From an uncultured Acidobacteriota bacterium (GTDB lineage Bacteria; Acidobacteriota; Vicinamibacteria; Vicinamibacterales; CAVVIG01): a DNA stretch of 64,000 bases. Under the pieces are notes generated by a model, which did no database searches, was not told the origin of the DNA, and was given only the letters and a program-made list of their open reading frames with translations. Positions 7,077 through 51,390 of this stretch are shown here, one piece after another (the first letter of the stretch is position 1; every line of letters begins with the position of its first letter). The DNA lies in assembly GCA_963729215.1 (NCBI GenBank), contig CAVSND010000030.1:74239-138238 (forward strand). The letters run 5' to 3'. The position numbers and the translations under genes were made by a program.

Positions 7077-8405
7077 ATGTTCATCACCAAAAAACACATC
7101 GCGCGGCGGACGTTCCTGCGGGGCGCGGGCGCGACGCTGGCGCTGCCGCTCCTCGACGCGATGGTGCCGGCCCGCACGCTGCTCGCGAAGACCGCCGCCA
7201 ATCCCACGGCACGCCTGGGATTCGTGTATCTGCCGCACGGCGCCATCATGGACAAATGGACGCCGGCGACCGAGGGCAAGGGCTTCGAGTTCACCCCGAT
7301 CCTCAAGCCGCTCGAGCCGTTCCGCGAGTACGTGGACGTCGTGAGCGGCCTCGGGCACCGGGCGGCCGACACGTCGGCGGTCCACTCGCTGAGCCCGACG
7401 ACGTGGCTGAGCGGCGTCCGGCCGAAGCCGACGCAGGGCGTGGATGCGTTTGCCGGGATTACGGCCGATCAGATCGCCGCGCTGAAAATCGGGCAGGAGA
7501 CGCCGCTCCCGTCGATTGAAATCGCCACGGAAGATCAGTCGGGCCTCATCGGATCGTGCGACCGCGACTACGGGTGCATCTACATGAACACGTTGTCGTG
7601 GCGGACGCCGACCACGCCAATGCCGATGGAGATCAACCCGCGCAAGGTGTTCGAGCGGATGTTCGGCCAGGGCGGCAGCCCCGCGGAACGCCAGGCGCGG
7701 ACGGAAAGCGACCGCAGCATCCTCGATGCGGTGACGCAGCAGATCAAGGATCTGCAGCGCAGCCTCGGCCGCAAGGACACGGTCACGGTGAACGACTATC
7801 TCGAAAGCGTCCGCGAGATCGAGCGGCGCCTTCAGGTGGCCGGGCACGAACAGCAGACCAGCCTCGATCTGCCCCCGGCGCCCGTCGGCATCCCGTTCAA
7901 CTTCGAAGAGCACATCACGCTGATGTACGACCTCATGGCGCTCGCCTACCAGGCGAACATCACCCGCGTCTTCACGTATATGGTGGCGCGCGAGGAGAGC
8001 AACAAGACGTACCCGCAGGTGGACGTCCACGAAGGACACCACGCGACGTCGCACCACCAGAACAGGCCGGAAAAAATCGAGAAGCTGGTCAGGATCCAGA
8101 CGTACCACATCGGCTTGTTCGCGGAGTTCCTCAAGAAGCTCAACTCGATTCAGGACGGCGACGGCACGCTGCTCGATCATTCGCTGATCCTCTACGGCAG
8201 CAACATGAGCAACAGCAACGTGCACAACCACTTTCCGCTGCCCAACCTTGTCGTCGGCCGCGCCGCCGGCAACCATCAGGGAGGCAGGCACCTGAAGTAT
8301 CCGGACCACACCCCCATGACGAACCTCGTGTTGTCGATGCTGGACAAGGTCGGCGTACCGATGGATACGCTGGGCGACAGCACCGGACCGCTCGAAAACG
8401 CCTGA
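7077..8405 (+). CDS. DUF1552 domain protein with twin-arginine signal
   Basis: MFITKKHIARRTFLRGAGATLALPLLDAM is a Tat-type N-terminus. It is the usual downstream partner of DUF1592 proteins. The ORF is intact at 442 aa. Confidence 0.85.
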   Translation: MFITKKHIARRTFLRGAGATLALPLLDAMVPARTLLAKTAANPTARLGFVYLPHGAIMDKWTPATEGKGFEFTPILKPLEPFREYVDVVSGLGHRAADTSAVHSLSPTTWLSGVRPKPTQGVDAFAGITADQIAALKIGQETPLPSIEIATEDQSGLIGSCDRDYGCIYMNTLSWRTPTTPMPMEINPRKVFERMFGQGGSPAERQARTESDRSILDAVTQQIKDLQRSLGRKDTVTVNDYLESVREIERRLQVAGHEQQTSLDLPPAPVGIPFNFEEHITLMYDLMALAYQANITRVFTYMVAREESNKTYPQVDVHEGHHATSHHQNRPEKIEKLVRIQTYHIGLFAEFLKKLNSIQDGDGTLLDHSLILYGSNMSNSNVHNHFPLPNLVVGRAAGNHQGGRHLKYPDHTPMTNLVLSMLDKVGVPMDTLGDSTGPLENA

Positions 8406-26417: not shown

Positions 26418-28257
26418 GACACCGAGCCCTTCTACTGGCCGTGGCGCTGGTCGCCGCGGCGGTTGGCCATCCCACGGCCGACGCCTCGAAACTTCGCAGC
26501 TACGTACAGACGCTCGCCTCCGACCGGTTTGGCGGGCGCATGACCGGCACCGAAGGCGAGACACTCGCCCGCGAGTTCATCGTCGCCGAGCTGAAGCGCA
26601 TCGGCGCGAAGCCGCTGCCCGGCCGCGAGTGATTTCGAATTGCCGTTCGAGTTCACGGCCGGGTACCCGTGACGCCGGGTCGAGGGTCTCGACCAGCATC
26701 GAGTTTCCGCGGCCACGAGACGGCGTCGTGGGCGGCATCGTGGGAGGAACGGCACCGGGCGATGCTCGGGCGTTGTCCTTCTCGGACAACGGTGACGTTG
26801 ACGGCCCCGTGGTCTTCGCCGGCTACGGCATCGTTGTTCCGGACAACCAGGAGTTCGGCTACGACAGCTACACCGGCCTCGATGTGAAGGACAAGGTCGT
26901 GCTCGTCCTCCGCTACTTCCCGGAAGATGCCGACCAGAAGACCAAGGCGATCCTCGTCCCGGTACTCGGATCTTCGGTACAAGGCGATGGCGGCGCGGCA
27001 GCACGGAGCCAAGGCCATTCTCGTCGTCACCGGCCCGCATTCGCCCAATGCGGGCGAACTGGCGCCGATGACATTCGACACCGCGATTGCCGGGTCGGGC
27101 ATCCTGGCGCTCAGTATCACGGGGAAGATGGCGGAAGGTCTGTTCGCGGGCATGCCGGACAAGAATCTGGCGGACGCGCAGAAGTCGCTCGACTCCGGGA
27201 ACCCCCACGTCGTCCGGCTTTCCGCTCACGGGCGCGAAGGTCCGCGTTCACGCCGACGTCGTTCGTGAGACGCGGACAGGCCGCAACATCACCGGTTATC
27301 TGCCGGCAACCACGTCGCCGGCATCGGGCCCGAAGCCGTGGGTGGCGCTTGGCGCCCACTACGATCACCTGGGCAGCGGCGGCAACGGGCTGTCGCTGGC
27401 GTCGAAGGAAGACGCCGGACGCGTGCATGGCGGCGCGGACGACAACGCGTCCGGTACGGCCGCCGTGCTGGCCGTCGCGGACACGTTCGCGAAGGAACGC
27501 CGGCGGCGGAACCTCGTCTTCAGCTTCTGGTCCGGCGAGGAACTGGGTCTGCTCGGTTCGGCGGCTTTCACGTCGCATCCGCCGATTCCACTGGCCGACA
27601 TCGAGGCGTATCTCAACTTCGACATGGTCGGCCGCATGCAGGAGAACAGGCTCAACGTCCAGGCCAGCGGATCGAGCCCGGTGTGGGACAAGCTGATCGA
27701 ACAGGCGAACGTCAAGGCGGGATTCGATCTGCGGCTGCAGCCCGACCCCTATCAGCCGACCGACGTGCAGACGTTCAACATGGCGAGCATTCCGAGCCTG
27801 AACTTCTTCACTGGCTCGCACGTGGACTACCACAAGCCCAGCGACACGGCGGACAAGATCGACTACGAGGATTCTCGATCGCATCGTCGACTTTGCCGCG
27901 GCGATTCTCCGGCGCCTCGACGCGCTGACGGAAGCGCCAGCCTTTACGAAGGTCGAACCGCAGACGCAGGGCGGCGCGAGCCGCACGGGCGTCCGGATCT
28001 TCACGGGCACCATCCCGGACTACGCGTCGGATGCGAAAGGACTTCTGCTCGGCGGCGTGGTGGGCGGCGGCCCGGCCGAGCAGGCCGGCCTCCAGAAGGG
28101 CGACGTGATCGTCGAAATCGCCGGCCAGACGATCACGAACATCTACGACTACACCTACGCGCTCGAGGTGCTGAAAGTGGGCCAGTCCGCCAAGGTCGTC
28201 TACATGCGCAACGGCGAGCGGAAAGAAACGACGCTCACCCCTTCCGCTCGAAAGTAA
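26414..28257 (+). pseudogene. M28 family aminopeptidase with PA and C-terminal PDZ domains, 5 frame breaks
   Basis: Segments read in successive frames: MRHRALLLAVALV..DRFGGRMTGTEGE.. | SDFELPFEFTAG | TRDAGSRV..VVFAGYGIVVPD..DVKDKVVLVLRYFPE.. | SRYSDLRYKAMAARQHGAKAILVV.. | GFPLTGAKVRVHADV..GAHYDHLG..GADDNASGTAAVL..FWSGEELGLLGS..YLNFDMVG.. | LDRIVDFAAA..PAEQAGLQKGDVIVEIAGQ..TPSARK*. Breaks are at about 26628, 26660, 26956, 27215 and 27873. Confidence 0.8.
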
Positions 28258-28337
28258 CTCGAGTGCAGCGGCAGGGGCGTTAGAGCATATTTCAGACTCG
28301 CGTACCATCTCCGATCGTACCCACGCCGACGCGTCAC

Positions 28338-28775
28338 GTGGTGGTCGGTGGGCCCTGCGTCGGGCACGGTCGTCAGCCCGGAAAAACGACGCGGCGGCAT
28401 CATCGTGTAATGTCATGGCGCTCGGCCCAGGTTTGGGCTCTCGCGGTGGTGGCCGCCGCGTCGTTTTTCGCGTTCGAGACGGGCTGAGACCTATCGCCCG
28501 ACGCAGGGCCCGCCGACCACCGCCTGACGCACACGGGTGCGTGAGACTCCCACGGATTAGCCAGCCCCCGGATCAGGGACGAGGAGTCGCGGTCTCGCAT
28601 CGTGGCTGGGCCAATGATGGAAGGCGGCGTGACCGTCGTCAGACGATAAAACGCCGGGTTTTTCCACGCCGAGCTTCGTATTGGCCAAGCCGCGATGCGG
28701 GACCGCGACGGTGGTTCGACGACTCGCCGTAAAAACGCTATGTCCCCCGCGCTTCGCACTCCGGCGAGCGTCGTC
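28338..28775 (+). ncRNA. candidate structured RNA / palindromic element cluster (unclassified)
   Basis: H1: 28338-28365 pairs with 28496-28523 (28 bp, 2 G-U), 28374-80 with 28480-86, 28381-98 with 28452-69 (18 bp perfect), plus 9 more bp with 3 G-U. H2: 28597-28615 pairs with 28680-28698 and encloses two small hairpins. H3: about 28718-28775. I saw no known RNA-family motif. Confidence 0.3.
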
Positions 28776-28803
28776 GTCGTGAAGCGAAGGCGAGCAGACC
28801 TGC

Positions 28804-29302
28804 TCACTCGCGCAGTCTGTAGAACGTGATCATGTCGGTGCTCTTCGGCGGAGGAGCCCCGAGCTGGCGCAGCAGCGTTGTCACCTGGCCGCGGTGATAG
28901 CTTCCGTGATTGACCACGTGAGTGAGCATCTGAAAGAACGGTGACGCGCCCGTTGCGCCGCTGAGCAGCTTGTACTCGAACACGCGCGAGACGCCGGCCT
29001 CGCCAAGGCCTTCGACGAACCCGCGGACTTTCCCCTCGAGATCGACCCACGACCTGCGAATGGAATCAACATCGGGAAACGTGTCGTACGCGATCAGAGA
29101 CGAAGGGGATTCGCCAAGCCACCGCGTGTACCACACAAGGTCGGCGGCGTAGATGTGCGCCACGGTGTCGCGAACGGACTTGAAGCTGCTGTCCACCGAG
29201 ACGGGTGAACTGCTCCGGCGTCAGCGGCGTGACGGCTTCCAGGATGAGGTCGCGGGCCCAGTAGTGATAATCGAGCAGCGTGCGGAGATCCTTGAGGTCC
29301 AT
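28804..29302 (-). pseudogene. DinB-family (DinB_2/DUF664-like) protein, frame broken near 29200
   Basis: MDLKDLRTLLDYHYWARDLILEAVTPLTPEQFTR lies in one frame. VDSSFKSVRDTVAHIYAADLVWYTRW..HVVNHGSYHRGQVTTLLRQLG lies in the next (ORF 28804..29196). Confidence 0.75.
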
Positions 29303-42548: not shown

Positions 42549-42594
42549 GTAGCGTCCGCCTTCAGGCGGACGTCCGGCTGAAGCCGGACGCTAC
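42549..42594. repeat. REP-like double-hairpin element (no spacer)
   Basis: GTAGCGTCCGCCTTCAGGCGGAC-GTCCGGCTGAAGCCGGACGCTAC, between convergent genes. Confidence 0.9.
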
Positions 42595-44643: not shown

Positions 44644-44668
44644 AGTCCTGCGCAGCTAGAACAATGAA

Positions 44669-44735
44669 CCACGAAGATCACGAAGGTCACGAAGAAGGCT
44701 TAACCTGTAGAGAGAACTTCGTGATCTTCGTGATT
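44669..44735. repeat. palindrome built from CACGAAGAT tandem units (16-bp perfect stem)
   Basis: CACGAAGATCACGAAG (44670-85) pairs with CTTCGTGATCTTCGTG (44717-32). It is followed by the tandem CTGCTCTCGA/CTGCTCTCGC (44742-61). It lies between xth and pepT. Confidence 0.85.
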
Positions 44736-44770
44736 CGAGGATCTGCTCTCGACTGCTCTCGCAACCTGTC

Positions 44771-51240: not shown

Positions 51241-51390
51241 CCGTGGAGAACGCCGGACCCGTGGAGAACGCAGAGGAGGGTCATAACGCAGAGATCGCAG
51301 AGATCGCCGAGAAGAGTACTTTGGAAAGTCAGTCTTTCTCTGCGATCTCCGCGATCTCTGCGTTTGAGAATGTCTCCGCGTTCTCAAAAG
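51241..51390. repeat. about 150-nt imperfect palindrome built from GCAGAGATC and GGAGAACGC units
   Basis: Inner arms GCAGAGATCGCAGAGATCGCCGAGAAGAG (51288-316) and TCTTTCTCTGCGATCTCCGCGATCTCTGC (51333-61) match at about 25/29. The centre is ACTTTGGAAAGT. Outer arms are TGGAGAACGCCGGAC and GTCTCCGCGTTCTCA. Confidence 0.85.

What the first reader, a model, noticed from the sequence alone, without database searches (positions are those of the whole stretch)
28338..28780. Highly structured 540-nt convergent intergenic region: candidate novel large ncRNA or nested MITE
This spacer between the M28 peptidase gene (+) and the DinB gene (-) is unusually long.
- H1 is a rod of about 186 nt. 28338-65 pairs with 28496-523 (28 bp). 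An 8x9-nt internal loop follows. 28374-80 pairs with 28480-86. A 10-nt 3' bulge follows. 28381-98 pairs with 28452-69 (18 bp perfect). 28399-407 pairs with 28442-50 (9 bp). An apical GCCCA-GGTT-TGGGC hairpin closes it.
- All five non-Watson-Crick pairs in these helices are T-G as read on the plus strand. They would be A-C on the minus strand, which weakly favours a plus-strand RNA.
- H2 (28597-615 with 28680-98; 17 WC pairs, 1 G-U, 1 mismatch) continues with 7 + 4 bp and encloses two small hairpins (CGTC-GTCA-GACG and AAAAC-GCCGG-GTTTT), giving a three-way junction.
- H3 (about 28718-775) pairs CGACGACTCGCCG with CGGCGAGCGTCGTCG.
The rod shape of H1 recalls 6S RNA, but its very long perfect helices look more like a young inverted repeat or MITE.
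Basis: partly seen in the sequence, partly recalled or inferred. Interest (0 to 1): 0.7.

Follow-up and report, generated by a model that had tools for sequence, protein, structure and literature searches.

The report
Mobile hairpin-rich repeat element, not locus-specific RNA
The highly structured spacer is one copy of a roughly 0.5-kb non-coding repeat that also sits at unrelated places in other soil-bacterium contigs, so it is most likely a small mobile DNA element of a new family and not an RNA gene tied to this locus.

Summary
H1 (28331-28530) and H2 (28586-28709) are real and far beyond chance (z about -13 on either strand). H3 is not: z is -0.1, and its 3' arm lies outside the conserved unit.

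The structured part is a discrete 460-nt unit, 28281-28740. Three relatives with about 91% identical M28 protein keep the M28->|<-DinB arrangement. Their spacers are only 104-153 nt and unrelated in sequence.

The same unit, at 79-90% identity, lies in four other metagenomic contigs with entirely different flanks. It is bounded by TA on both sides and has only a short, imperfect terminal inverted repeat. Five of its termini coincide exactly with the stop codon of the neighbouring gene. The left-flank tetranucleotide is always YTAR, the IS630-type target.

H1 and H2 each carry a paralogous 89-nt hairpin module (A-tract, GC stem, T-tract) in opposite orientations. The window copy has lost the one in H2.

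There is no Rfam match, no promoter-like site, no consistent strand bias of wobble pairs and no conserved ORF.

Best reading: a new MITE-like, TA-targeting non-autonomous element of Vicinamibacterales-like bacteria. A mobile functional RNA or terminator cassette is not excluded, because the hairpins are two to four times better conserved than the linker and left end. The transposase is unknown.

The parts
26585..28257 (+). Upstream flank: M28 peptidase with a C-terminal PDZ domain. The reading frame is broken at least five times.
   Evidence: Pfam finds Peptidase_M28 and PDZ. tblastn with the 556-aa homologue P0003 gives pieces in frames 2, 3, 1, 2, 3, 1 at 61-92% identity.
28258..28280 (.). 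Native left flank of the insertion. It is the 5' half of a small pre-existing hairpin.
   Evidence: This stretch is not shared with any other copy. Joined to 28741-28765 through a single TA, it forms a hairpin with the TA in the loop (-23.3 kcal/mol, z = -2.6).
28281..28740 (+). The repeat element itself: 460 nt including the TA at each end.
   Evidence: Homology to L007, L012, L013 and L014 starts at the TA at 28281-28282 and ends at the TA at 28739-28740. The flanks are unrelated.
28281..28330 (+). Left end, TAGAGCATATTTCAGA..., with a short imperfect terminal repeat. In other copies the TA plus the following purine serves as the stop codon of the adjacent gene.
   Evidence: The ends are aligned. 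The termini pair with each other in the L007 fold. Stop-codon coincidences are shown. Mean identity between copies is 74%.
28331..28530 (.). H1, a 200-nt rod: outer stem 28331-28365 / 28496-28530, and invariant middle stem 28368-28380 / 28480-28491.
   Evidence: H1 is present in all five copies, 86-88% identical, with the middle stem 100% identical.
28381..28469 (+). Module M1: A5, an 18-bp GC-rich stem, a branched apex, then T5. It resembles a bidirectional terminator.
   Evidence: Perfect 18-bp arms. Fold z = -6.7 on the + strand and -7.6 on the - strand. A terminator-like site is flagged at 28442-28460 plus the T run. The covariance model scores it 110 bits.
28531..28585 (.). Variable linker between H1 and H2.
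   Evidence: Mean identity between copies is 69%, with indels.
28586..28709 (.). H2: outer arms 28586-28615 / 28680-28709, enclosing two small hairpins.
   Evidence: The arms are 91-96% identical between copies.
28648..28663 (.). Scar of a roughly 70-nt deletion that removed module M2.
   Evidence: L007, L013, L014 and (in part) L012 carry an inverted paralogue of M1 at this position.
28710..28740 (+). Right end of the element, ...CGACGACTCGCCGTAAAAACGCTA.
   Evidence: Shared with L007, L013 and L014 up to the terminal TA. Mean identity is 86%.
28741..28803 (.). Native right flank.
   Evidence: Not shared with any other copy. The region 28710-28803 folds no better than shuffles (z = -0.1).
28804..29302 (-). 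Downstream flank: DinB-family gene, convergent with M28, with one frameshift near 29185-29200.
   Evidence: Translations. tblastn with the L001 DinB protein gives two pieces in different frames. The orthologues carry Pfam DinB and DinB_2.

Best explanation
Window 28281-28740 is one copy of a dispersed, non-coding family of 0.46-0.54-kb elements. The hosts are Vicinamibacterales-like Acidobacteriota.

The element most likely behaves as a non-autonomous DNA transposon (a MITE). It inserts at a TA dinucleotide in a YTAR context and is moved in trans by an IS630/Tc1-mariner-type transposase that has not been found.

In the window it landed in the loop of a small terminator-like hairpin between two convergent genes. 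H1 and H2 belong to the element itself. They are two long hairpins, each built around a paralogous 89-nt module (A-tract, GC stem, T-tract), and the two modules face in opposite directions. The window copy later lost the H2 module by a palindrome deletion.

The element begins with TA plus a purine. Its last base before the terminal TA is C or T. An insertion into the TA of a TAA or TAG stop codon therefore keeps a stop codon for the genes on both sides.

The stable hairpins and T-tracts probably act as 3'-end or terminator structures for read-through transcripts from either side. That would make such insertions tolerable.

Shown: the element is a discrete repeated unit, it is absent from orthologous sites, its ends are conserved and TA-bounded, its termini coincide with stop codons, and the hairpins are kept in every copy.

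Inferred: the TA duplication, the transposase family, and any terminator or mRNA-stabilising effect.
For: - Absence at the orthologous site. L001, L002 and L015 encode M28 proteins 91% identical to the window's and keep the M28->|<-DinB arrangement. Their spacers are 104, 140 and 153 nt and unrelated in sequence.
- Copies elsewhere. L007, L012, L013 and L014 match window 28278-28742 at 80-87% identity (79-90% among themselves). They share nothing else with the window or with each other.
- Different contexts. The neighbours are PQQ dehydrogenase / DinB_2, sulfatase / TonB-receptor-like, and adh_short / unknown.
- Ends. All four full-length copies start with TA(G/A)AGCA and end with AACGC(TT)TA. 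The tetranucleotide at each of the six left ends is YTAR: TTAG, CTAG, CTAA, CTAG, TTAA, TTAG.
- Stop codons. The terminal TA plus purine is the called stop codon in L012, L007, L014 and the L014 solo left end. After correcting a frameshift, the L007 right TA is the stop of the PQQ dehydrogenase gene.
- Empty-site reconstructions. Removing the L007 element leaves ...CGC TAG CG..., a CTAG shared by both convergent genes. The window's reconstructed empty site folds into a hairpin with the TA in its loop (z = -2.6).
- Known behaviour of the proposed transposase family. IS630-family elements insert at TA and duplicate it, with a reported preference for CTAG (PMC2170065, and the Tenzen and Ohtsubo 1991 title in its reference list).
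- The termini pair with each other in the L007 fold.
- L014 carries a second, solo left-end fragment beside the full copy.
- No conserved ORF: the indels between copies are not multiples of three, and the ORFs called over the element have no Pfam domain.
- No Rfam match and no promoter-like site.
- Both strands fold equally well.
Against: - No transposase gene with matching ends was found, and no true empty/filled pair of one orthologous site is available. The TA duplication therefore cannot be told apart from a TA that belongs to the element.
- The terminal inverted repeat is short and weak. It was better than shuffles in only one of four copies (2 of 500 shuffles in L013; 74-119 of 500 in the others).
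- The left end (74% identity) and the linker (69%) are less conserved than the internal hairpins (86-96%, and 100% in the H1 middle stem). This is the opposite of what is expected if only the termini matter for transposition.
- Copy number per genome is unknown. There is one copy in 64 kb of window.
- The GTDB species representatives gave no hit with a 23-mer or with back-translated seeds.
- At 460-540 nt the element is larger than most described bacterial MITEs (mostly under 200 bp, some about 400 bp; PMC3184786).
Confidence: 0.6

Rival explanations
1. The element is a structured RNA gene, or a bidirectional terminator / 3'-UTR cassette, that happens to be mobile or multicopy. On this reading H1 and H2 are kept by selection for an RNA-level function and are not just transposon cargo.
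For: - The hairpins are two to four times less diverged than the linker and left end.
- 95% of cells are paired in all copies, with 5 pairs changed on both sides against 2.2 in shuffles (18 of 500).
- 5 of the 16 main-stem pairs (28 pairs in all) show compensatory changes between the paralogous modules M1 and M2.
- In H2 the one-sided changes give 7 plus-strand G-U positions against 1 minus-strand position. Four G-U pairs are conserved in at least four copies.
- The modules have the A-tract / GC-stem / T-tract anatomy of bidirectional terminators.
Against: - No promoter-like site and no Rfam family.
- H1 shows no strand bias: 9 positions against 11.
- In the H1 outer stem, 9 of 12 variable pairs are simply broken, which looks like neutral decay.
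- The 33-nt apex of the module is conserved in both orientations within one element. That fits recognition as DNA better than a single RNA strand.
- Both strands fold equally well.
- Five sequences are too few for a covariation test.
Confidence: 0.17
2. The element is moved as single-stranded DNA by a hairpin-recognising HUH (Y1) transposase. That would make it an IS200/IS605-derived palindrome-associated element, or an oversized REPIN-like unit serviced by a RAYT. It would not be a TA-duplicating DDE element.
For: - The internal imperfect hairpins are the best conserved parts, and the terminal inverted repeats are weak.
- The left flank always ends in YTA and the element also ends in YTA. This would fit insertion 3' of a fixed short target with no duplication.
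- The position in extragenic space between convergent genes resembles REP and REPIN elements (PMC3184786, PMC3116915).
Against: - H1 and H2 are 125-200 nt, far larger than the subterminal hairpins of IS200/IS605 or the roughly 100-nt REPINs.
- No Y1 transposase or RAYT gene appears among the genes called or scanned around the copies. This was not a systematic search.
- The YTAR/CTAG context is the documented IS630 preference (PMC2170065).
Confidence: 0.15
3. The structure is a locus-specific regulatory or terminator spacer, a chance structure, or an assembly artefact of an error-prone long-read assembly.
For: - The window has many frameshifts in its genes.
- Related genomes also carry long hairpins in this same spacer.
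Against: - The same 460-540-nt sequence occurs in four independent assemblies from other samples, with different flanks.
- No shuffle of the sequence folds as well.
Confidence: 0.03

Closest known systems
IS630/Tc1-mariner-derived bacterial MITEs (for example RUP of Streptococcus pneumoniae; Correia/NEMIS elements, which also have TA termini)
   Same: - Non-coding and dispersed, lying in intergenic DNA.
- 5'-TA-3' at both termini.
- Transcripts would form long stable stem-loops.
- The flank context is YTAR/CTAG, as for IS630.
(Criteria from PMC2229807, PMC3184786 and PMC2170065; data.)
   Different: - The element is 460-540 nt, against about 100-200 nt.
- The terminal repeats are short and weak.
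- The stable structure comes from two internal palindromes and not from pairing of the termini.
- The internal hairpins are better conserved than the ends.
- No cognate IS has been identified.
REP / BIME / REPIN elements mobilised by RAYTs
   Same: They are GC-rich imperfect palindromes in extragenic space, often between convergent genes. Hairpin units occur in alternating orientation, and roles in mRNA stability and termination have been proposed (PMC3184786, PMC3116915, PMC2817692).
   Different: - The units here are 125-200 nt, not 20-40 nt REPs or roughly 100-nt doublets.
- The whole 0.5-kb array is conserved as one block with fixed TA-bounded ends.
- High copy number has not been shown, and no RAYT was seen.
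Bidirectional intrinsic terminators
   Same: M1 and M2 each have an A-tract, a GC-rich stem and a T-tract. They sit between convergent genes immediately after stop codons.
   Different: The stems are 18-27 bp with a 50-nt branched apex, embedded in still longer helices. The sequence is a dispersed repeat and not a locally evolved terminator. No termination data exist.
6S RNA and other large structured ncRNAs in Rfam
   Same: H1 has a rod-like shape of about 190 nt.
   Different: No Rfam model matches, even at E up to 10. H1 has no large central bubble. The helices are long and near-perfect. The element changes locus between genomes.

Membership tests
Bacterial MITE (Delihas criteria, PMC2229807 / PMC3184786) | Small and non-coding, with no transposase gene | tested here: met
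   The element is 460-540 nt. Indels between copies break every reading frame. ORFs called over it have no Pfam domain. It is larger than the usual size of under 200-400 bp.
Bacterial MITE (Delihas criteria, PMC2229807 / PMC3184786) | Multiple copies dispersed at unrelated sites | tested here: inconclusive
   Five copies plus one fragment lie in five contigs with unrelated flanks. These come from different assemblies. Within the one genome sampled (64 kb) there is a single copy.
Bacterial MITE (Delihas criteria, PMC2229807 / PMC3184786) | Terminal inverted repeats | tested here: inconclusive
   The candidate repeat is CTAGAGC..TTTCA / TGAAA..GCTTTAG, about 12 of 16 bases. It pairs in the L007 fold. 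It beats shuffles only in L013 (2 of 500) and not in the window, L007 or L014.
Bacterial MITE (Delihas criteria, PMC2229807 / PMC3184786) | Target-site duplication, shown by comparing filled and empty sites | tested here: inconclusive
   TA lies at both ends of all four full-length copies. Three relatives lack the element, but their spacers are too diverged to align. The L007 and window reconstructions are consistent with a single original TA.
IS630 / Tc1-mariner-derived MITE | Insertion at a TA dinucleotide, preferentially in CTAG | tested here: met
   All six left-end junctions read YTAR, two of them CTAG. The L007 empty site reconstructs as GCTAGC. Reference behaviour is from PMC2170065.
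IS630 / Tc1-mariner-derived MITE | Terminal repeats match those of an IS630-family transposase-encoding element in the same hosts | not testable with these tools
   No second copy of the ends exists in the window or loci.
REP / REPIN (RAYT-mobilised) | 20-40-nt REP units forming a hairpin doublet of about 100 nt, high copy number, and an associated RAYT gene | tested here: not met
   The hairpins are 125-200 nt within a fixed 0.5-kb block. There is one copy per held locus. No RAYT or Y1 gene is among the called neighbours. Copy number in whole genomes was not testable.
IS200/IS605-derived palindrome-associated element | Subterminal hairpins, no terminal repeats, no duplication, and insertion 3' of a fixed tetra- or pentanucleotide | tested here: inconclusive
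   Weak terminal repeats and a constant YTA on the left flank are compatible. The hairpins are not subterminal-sized, and no TnpA or TnpB gene was seen.
Any curated RNA family (Rfam 15, including 6S) | A covariance-model match | tested here: not met
   Nothing of note inside 28258-28803 at E up to 10: the only match there is a noise-level hit to a microRNA model (mir-288, 17.8 bits against a gathering score of 60, E = 5.9). L013 and L014, which hold complete copies, gave no match at E up to 1.
Intrinsic (bidirectional) terminator | A GC-rich hairpin followed by a T-run on the transcribed strand, downstream of a gene | tested here: inconclusive
   A terminator-like site lies at 28442-28460 plus TCGTTTTTCG. 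The scanned region had 3 such sites against 0.7 expected, but only two of them (overlapping, at 28442-28460) lie in the element; the third is inside the DinB gene on the other strand. A5 and T5 flank M1 in all copies. The stems and loop are far larger than canonical ones, and there are no transcript data.

The most novel reading that the evidence does not exclude
The element is a self-contained mobile '3'-end cassette'. On this reading it targets the TA of stop codons, including overlapping convergent stop codons. It restores a stop codon on both sides. It also delivers two oppositely oriented, selectively maintained hairpin and terminator modules, or a structured RNA made from them.

H1 and H2 would then be functional parts under purifying selection and not inert cargo. 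Alternatively, they could be the recognition structures of an undescribed hairpin-dependent mobilisation system.
Probability: 0.2. Interest if true: 0.6.

Novelty: new member of a known kind. Interest (0 to 1): 0.35.

Why it matters
- It removes a false lead: this is not a locus-specific large ncRNA.
- It documents a previously undescribed repeat family in a little-studied, mostly uncultured soil lineage (Vicinamibacterales).
- Two features deserve follow-up. The termini preserve stop codons, which lets the element sit exactly on gene ends in a GC-rich genome where TA is scarce. The internal hairpins are better conserved than the termini, which hints at a function beyond transposition.
- Practically, such elements generate spurious ORF calls. 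P0121-P0123 are examples. They also make convergent spacers hypervariable between close relatives.

Tried and rejected
- Rfam scans of the region at E up to 10, and of two complete copies at E up to 1, found nothing beyond one noise-level microRNA-model hit (mir-288, E = 5.9). This includes 6S.
- A search for further copies of the H1 arms, the H2 arms or the whole spacer in the 64-kb window found only the element's own arms.
- GTDB species representatives gave no hit. An H1-arm 23-mer found nothing. A back-translated peptide search matched 577 seeds, but none was confirmed.
- Two invariant 20-24-mers found nothing in viral contigs. A distant BLAST against plasmids found nothing.
- The metagenome 21-mer scan gave 9 loci, but 8 are chance GC-rich matches with no shared flanks. 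The pattern was also poorly chosen: it began at a variable base, so it could not match L012. L014 does contain a match but was still not returned, so its sample is evidently not in that collection. Copy counts from this scan mean little.
- Protein-level searches with spurious ORFs were the route that found L012, L013 and L014. A third search with P0123 added nothing.
- The protein-coding reading was rejected: frames are not conserved and there are no domains.
- The idea that module M is an independent nested MITE was rejected on the available data. A covariance model finds M only inside element copies.
- H3 was rejected.
- The plus-strand RNA argument from T-G pairs was rejected as a general property.
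- The assembly-artefact reading was rejected because independent copies exist.
- Aligning the spacers of relatives to define an exact empty site failed, because the spacers are unrelated.

Full report
**Observation**

The spacer between the stop of an M28/PDZ peptidase gene (+, stop at 28255-28257) and the stop of a DinB-family gene (-, stop at 28804-28806) is 546 nt long.

- The arms are 28331-28365 / 28496-28530 (35 nt, 91% complementary).
- There is a perfect inner 18-bp helix, 28381-28398 / 28452-28469.
- A 201-nt stretch folds at -155.9 kcal/mol, with z = -12.9 against dinucleotide shuffles. The opposite strand does almost as well (z = -12.2).

H2 (arms 28586-28615 / 28680-28709) and its two small inner hairpins are also present.

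H3 is not supported. The stretch 28710-28803 folds no better than shuffles (z = -0.1), and the proposed pairing is not in its minimum-free-energy structure.

Rfam has no family matching the spacer beyond a noise-level microRNA-model hit (mir-288, E = 5.9) at E up to 10.

**Host and orthologous sites**

The peptidase's nearest named homologue is from a Vicinamibacterales MAG (77% identity). Three unnamed homologues are 91% identical.

The contigs of those three (L001, L002, L015) keep the M28->|<-DinB arrangement. Their spacers are only 104, 140 and 153 nt. They are unrelated in sequence to the window's spacer and to one another, and each has its own GC-rich hairpin.

The structured 460 nt of the window is therefore lineage-specific extra DNA in a spacer that turns over quickly.

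**Copies elsewhere**

An H1-arm 21-mer scan of metagenome contigs returned nine loci. Eight are chance GC-rich matches. L007 matches window 28278-28741 at 87% identity in the reverse orientation, and its flanks are unrelated.

I then translated the element and searched for ORFs that gene callers had spuriously predicted over other copies. This found L012, L013 and L014.

The five copies are 79-90% identical to one another over the element and share nothing else. Their neighbours differ:

| Copy | Neighbouring genes |
|---|---|
| L007 | PQQ dehydrogenase and a DinB_2 protein |
| L012 | a sulfatase and a TonB-receptor-like protein |
| L014 | a short-chain dehydrogenase (adh_short) and an unknown gene |
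| L013 | two co-directional genes |

Nothing was found in GTDB species representatives, viral contigs or plasmids. These scans used exact or back-translated seeds, and my first patterns covered variable bases. Absence there is weak evidence.

**Anatomy of the family (alignment A6)**

From left to right the element consists of:
- A left end, TA(G/A)AGCAYATTTCAGA...
- H1, which contains an 89-nt module M1: A5, an 18-bp GC stem, a branched apex, then T5.
- A variable linker.
- H2, which in four of five copies contains M2, a paralogue of M1 in the opposite orientation.
- A right end, ...CGACGACACCGCTGTGAAAAACGCTA.

The window copy has lost about 70 nt of M2.

L012 is truncated within M2 and is followed by a canonical terminator. 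L014 has an extra solo left-end fragment in inverted orientation beside the full copy.

A covariance model of M finds it only inside element copies. It finds no solo M in the 64-kb window with filters off, nor in 105 kb of loci. 'Nested MITE' is therefore not supported as an independent insertion.

**Ends and targets**

All four full-length copies are bounded by TA on both sides. All six left junctions read YTAR.

The terminal TA plus the following purine is the called stop codon of the gene reading into the element in four cases:
- L012 (TAA at 7974-7976)
- L007 (TAG at 6242-6240)
- L014 (TAA at 1617-1615)
- the L014 solo end (TAG at 1007-1009)

After correcting a contig frameshift, the right TA of L007 is the TAA stop of the PQQ dehydrogenase gene, whose protein ends ...DLILSFALPRR*.

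Removing the L007 element leaves GCTAGC. There both convergent genes stop on the same CTAG. In the window, joining the flanks through one TA restores a 40-nt hairpin with the TA in its loop (z = -2.6).

IS630-family elements insert at TA and duplicate it, with a reported preference for CTAG (PMC2170065 and the Tenzen and Ohtsubo 1991 title in its reference list). 5'-TA-3' termini, terminal inverted repeats, target-site duplications and stem-loop-forming transcripts are the usual marks of bacterial MITEs (PMC2229807, PMC3184786).

The terminal inverted repeat here is weak. CTAGAGC..TTTCA pairs with TGAAA..GCTTTAG in the L007 fold. An alignment test beats shuffles only for L013.

**RNA or DNA?**

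Pairing is kept in every copy: 95% of cells are paired. Variation is scarce.
- Five pairs changed on both sides, against 2.2 in shuffles (18 of 500 shuffles reach this).
- In the H1 outer stem, 9 of 12 variable pairs are simply broken.
- Between the paralogues M1 and M2, 5 of the 16 main-stem pairs (28 pairs in all) changed on both sides. Hairpin pairing has therefore been maintained over a longer time span.

Wobble pairs do not pick out a strand. The table gives the number of positions with a wobble pair on each strand.

| Region | + strand G-U | - strand G-U |
|---|---|---|
| H1 | 9 | 11 |
| H2 | 7 | 1 |
| Total | 16 | 12 |

Further points:
- Both strands of a complete copy fold equally well (z = -13.9 and -14.1).
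- The 33-nt apex of M is conserved in both orientations within one element. This fits recognition as DNA, or use by transcripts from both sides, better than a single RNA strand.
- No promoter-like site was found.
- Against a purely selfish reading, the hairpins are better conserved than the left end and the linker:

| Region | Mean identity between copies |
|---|---|
| H1 | 86-88% |
| H1 middle stem | 100% |
| H2 arms | 91-96% |
| Left end | 74% |
| Linker | 69% |

**Conclusion**

The finding is a copy of a new MITE-like repeat family. It is most likely TA-targeting and mobilised in trans. Its two internal, oppositely oriented hairpin modules look like bidirectional terminators, and its termini preserve adjacent stop codons.

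The mobile or repeated nature is well supported. The transposase family, the TA duplication and any terminator or RNA function are inferences. The main rivals are a mobile functional RNA or terminator cassette, and a hairpin-dependent (HUH) mobilisation system.

The window sequence has many frameshifts in its genes, so single-base details should be treated with care.

Noticed in passing
window 26585-28257 and 28804-29302: Both genes flanking the spacer are frameshifted. The M28 peptidase matches its 556-aa homologue in six pieces whose frames run 2, 3, 1, 2, 3, 1. DinB matches in two frames. Identity within the pieces is high, so these are either long-read assembly indel errors or recent pseudogenes.
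   Followed up: partly
window 51285-51364; L007 3795-3865; L015 1310-1335: There is a second hairpin repeat family, built from tandem 9-mers (CGCAGAGAT x2 pairing with ATCTCTGCG x2; fold z = -8.0). It is shared between the window, L007 (96% over 28 nt) and the spacer of relative L015. It looks like a REP-like family of the same lineage.
   Followed up: partly
window 44666-44736 and 42549-42594: Two further long, near-perfect intergenic hairpins: CACGAAGAT-type repeats (z = -5.8), and a 23-bp palindrome with no loop. Long hairpins at gene ends seem to be a general habit of this genome.
   Followed up: partly
L001 7240-7343; L002 6597-6736; L002 9211-9300: The relatives' convergent spacers carry 100-140-nt hairpins made of short G-rich sub-repeats (GGGCAGG, GGTGGTC). 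The L002 9211-9300 hairpin weakly resembles the H1 outer arm (80% over 35 nt). This may be convergence or a distant relationship.
   Followed up: no
L014 1006-1081: A solo left end of the element (43 nt at 88% identity, with homology fading by about 60 nt) lies inverted next to the right end of the full copy. Its TA-G forms the stop codon of the adh_short gene. This suggests a second insertion, or a heavily deleted copy, at the same spot.
   Followed up: partly
L012 8420-8530: The truncated L012 copy is followed by short tandem repeats (GGCTCGT x3, TACGTTYT x3) and a textbook bidirectional terminator (AAAGGGGGAGCCCGAAGGCTCCCCCTTTTT).
   Followed up: no
L007 5400-5705: The PQQ dehydrogenase gene of L007 needs a frameshift to reach its conserved C-terminus (...FALPRR*). 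Uncorrected, the ORF runs 57 codons into the element. The public contigs holding the copies therefore also contain indel errors.
   Followed up: yes
L013 317-1114 (P0122); L012 8001-8498 (P0121); L014 1074-1404 (P0123): Public gene calls include arginine-rich 'hypothetical proteins' that are translations of this non-coding element. P0122 fuses a real N-terminal domain to it.
   Followed up: yes
L001 vs L002 downstream of DinB: Two contigs from one sample (ERZ25039510) carry 91%-identical M28 genes but differ between DinB and DegP. L002 has FAD-binding monooxygenase fragments and a glyoxalase gene that L001 and the window lack.
   Followed up: no
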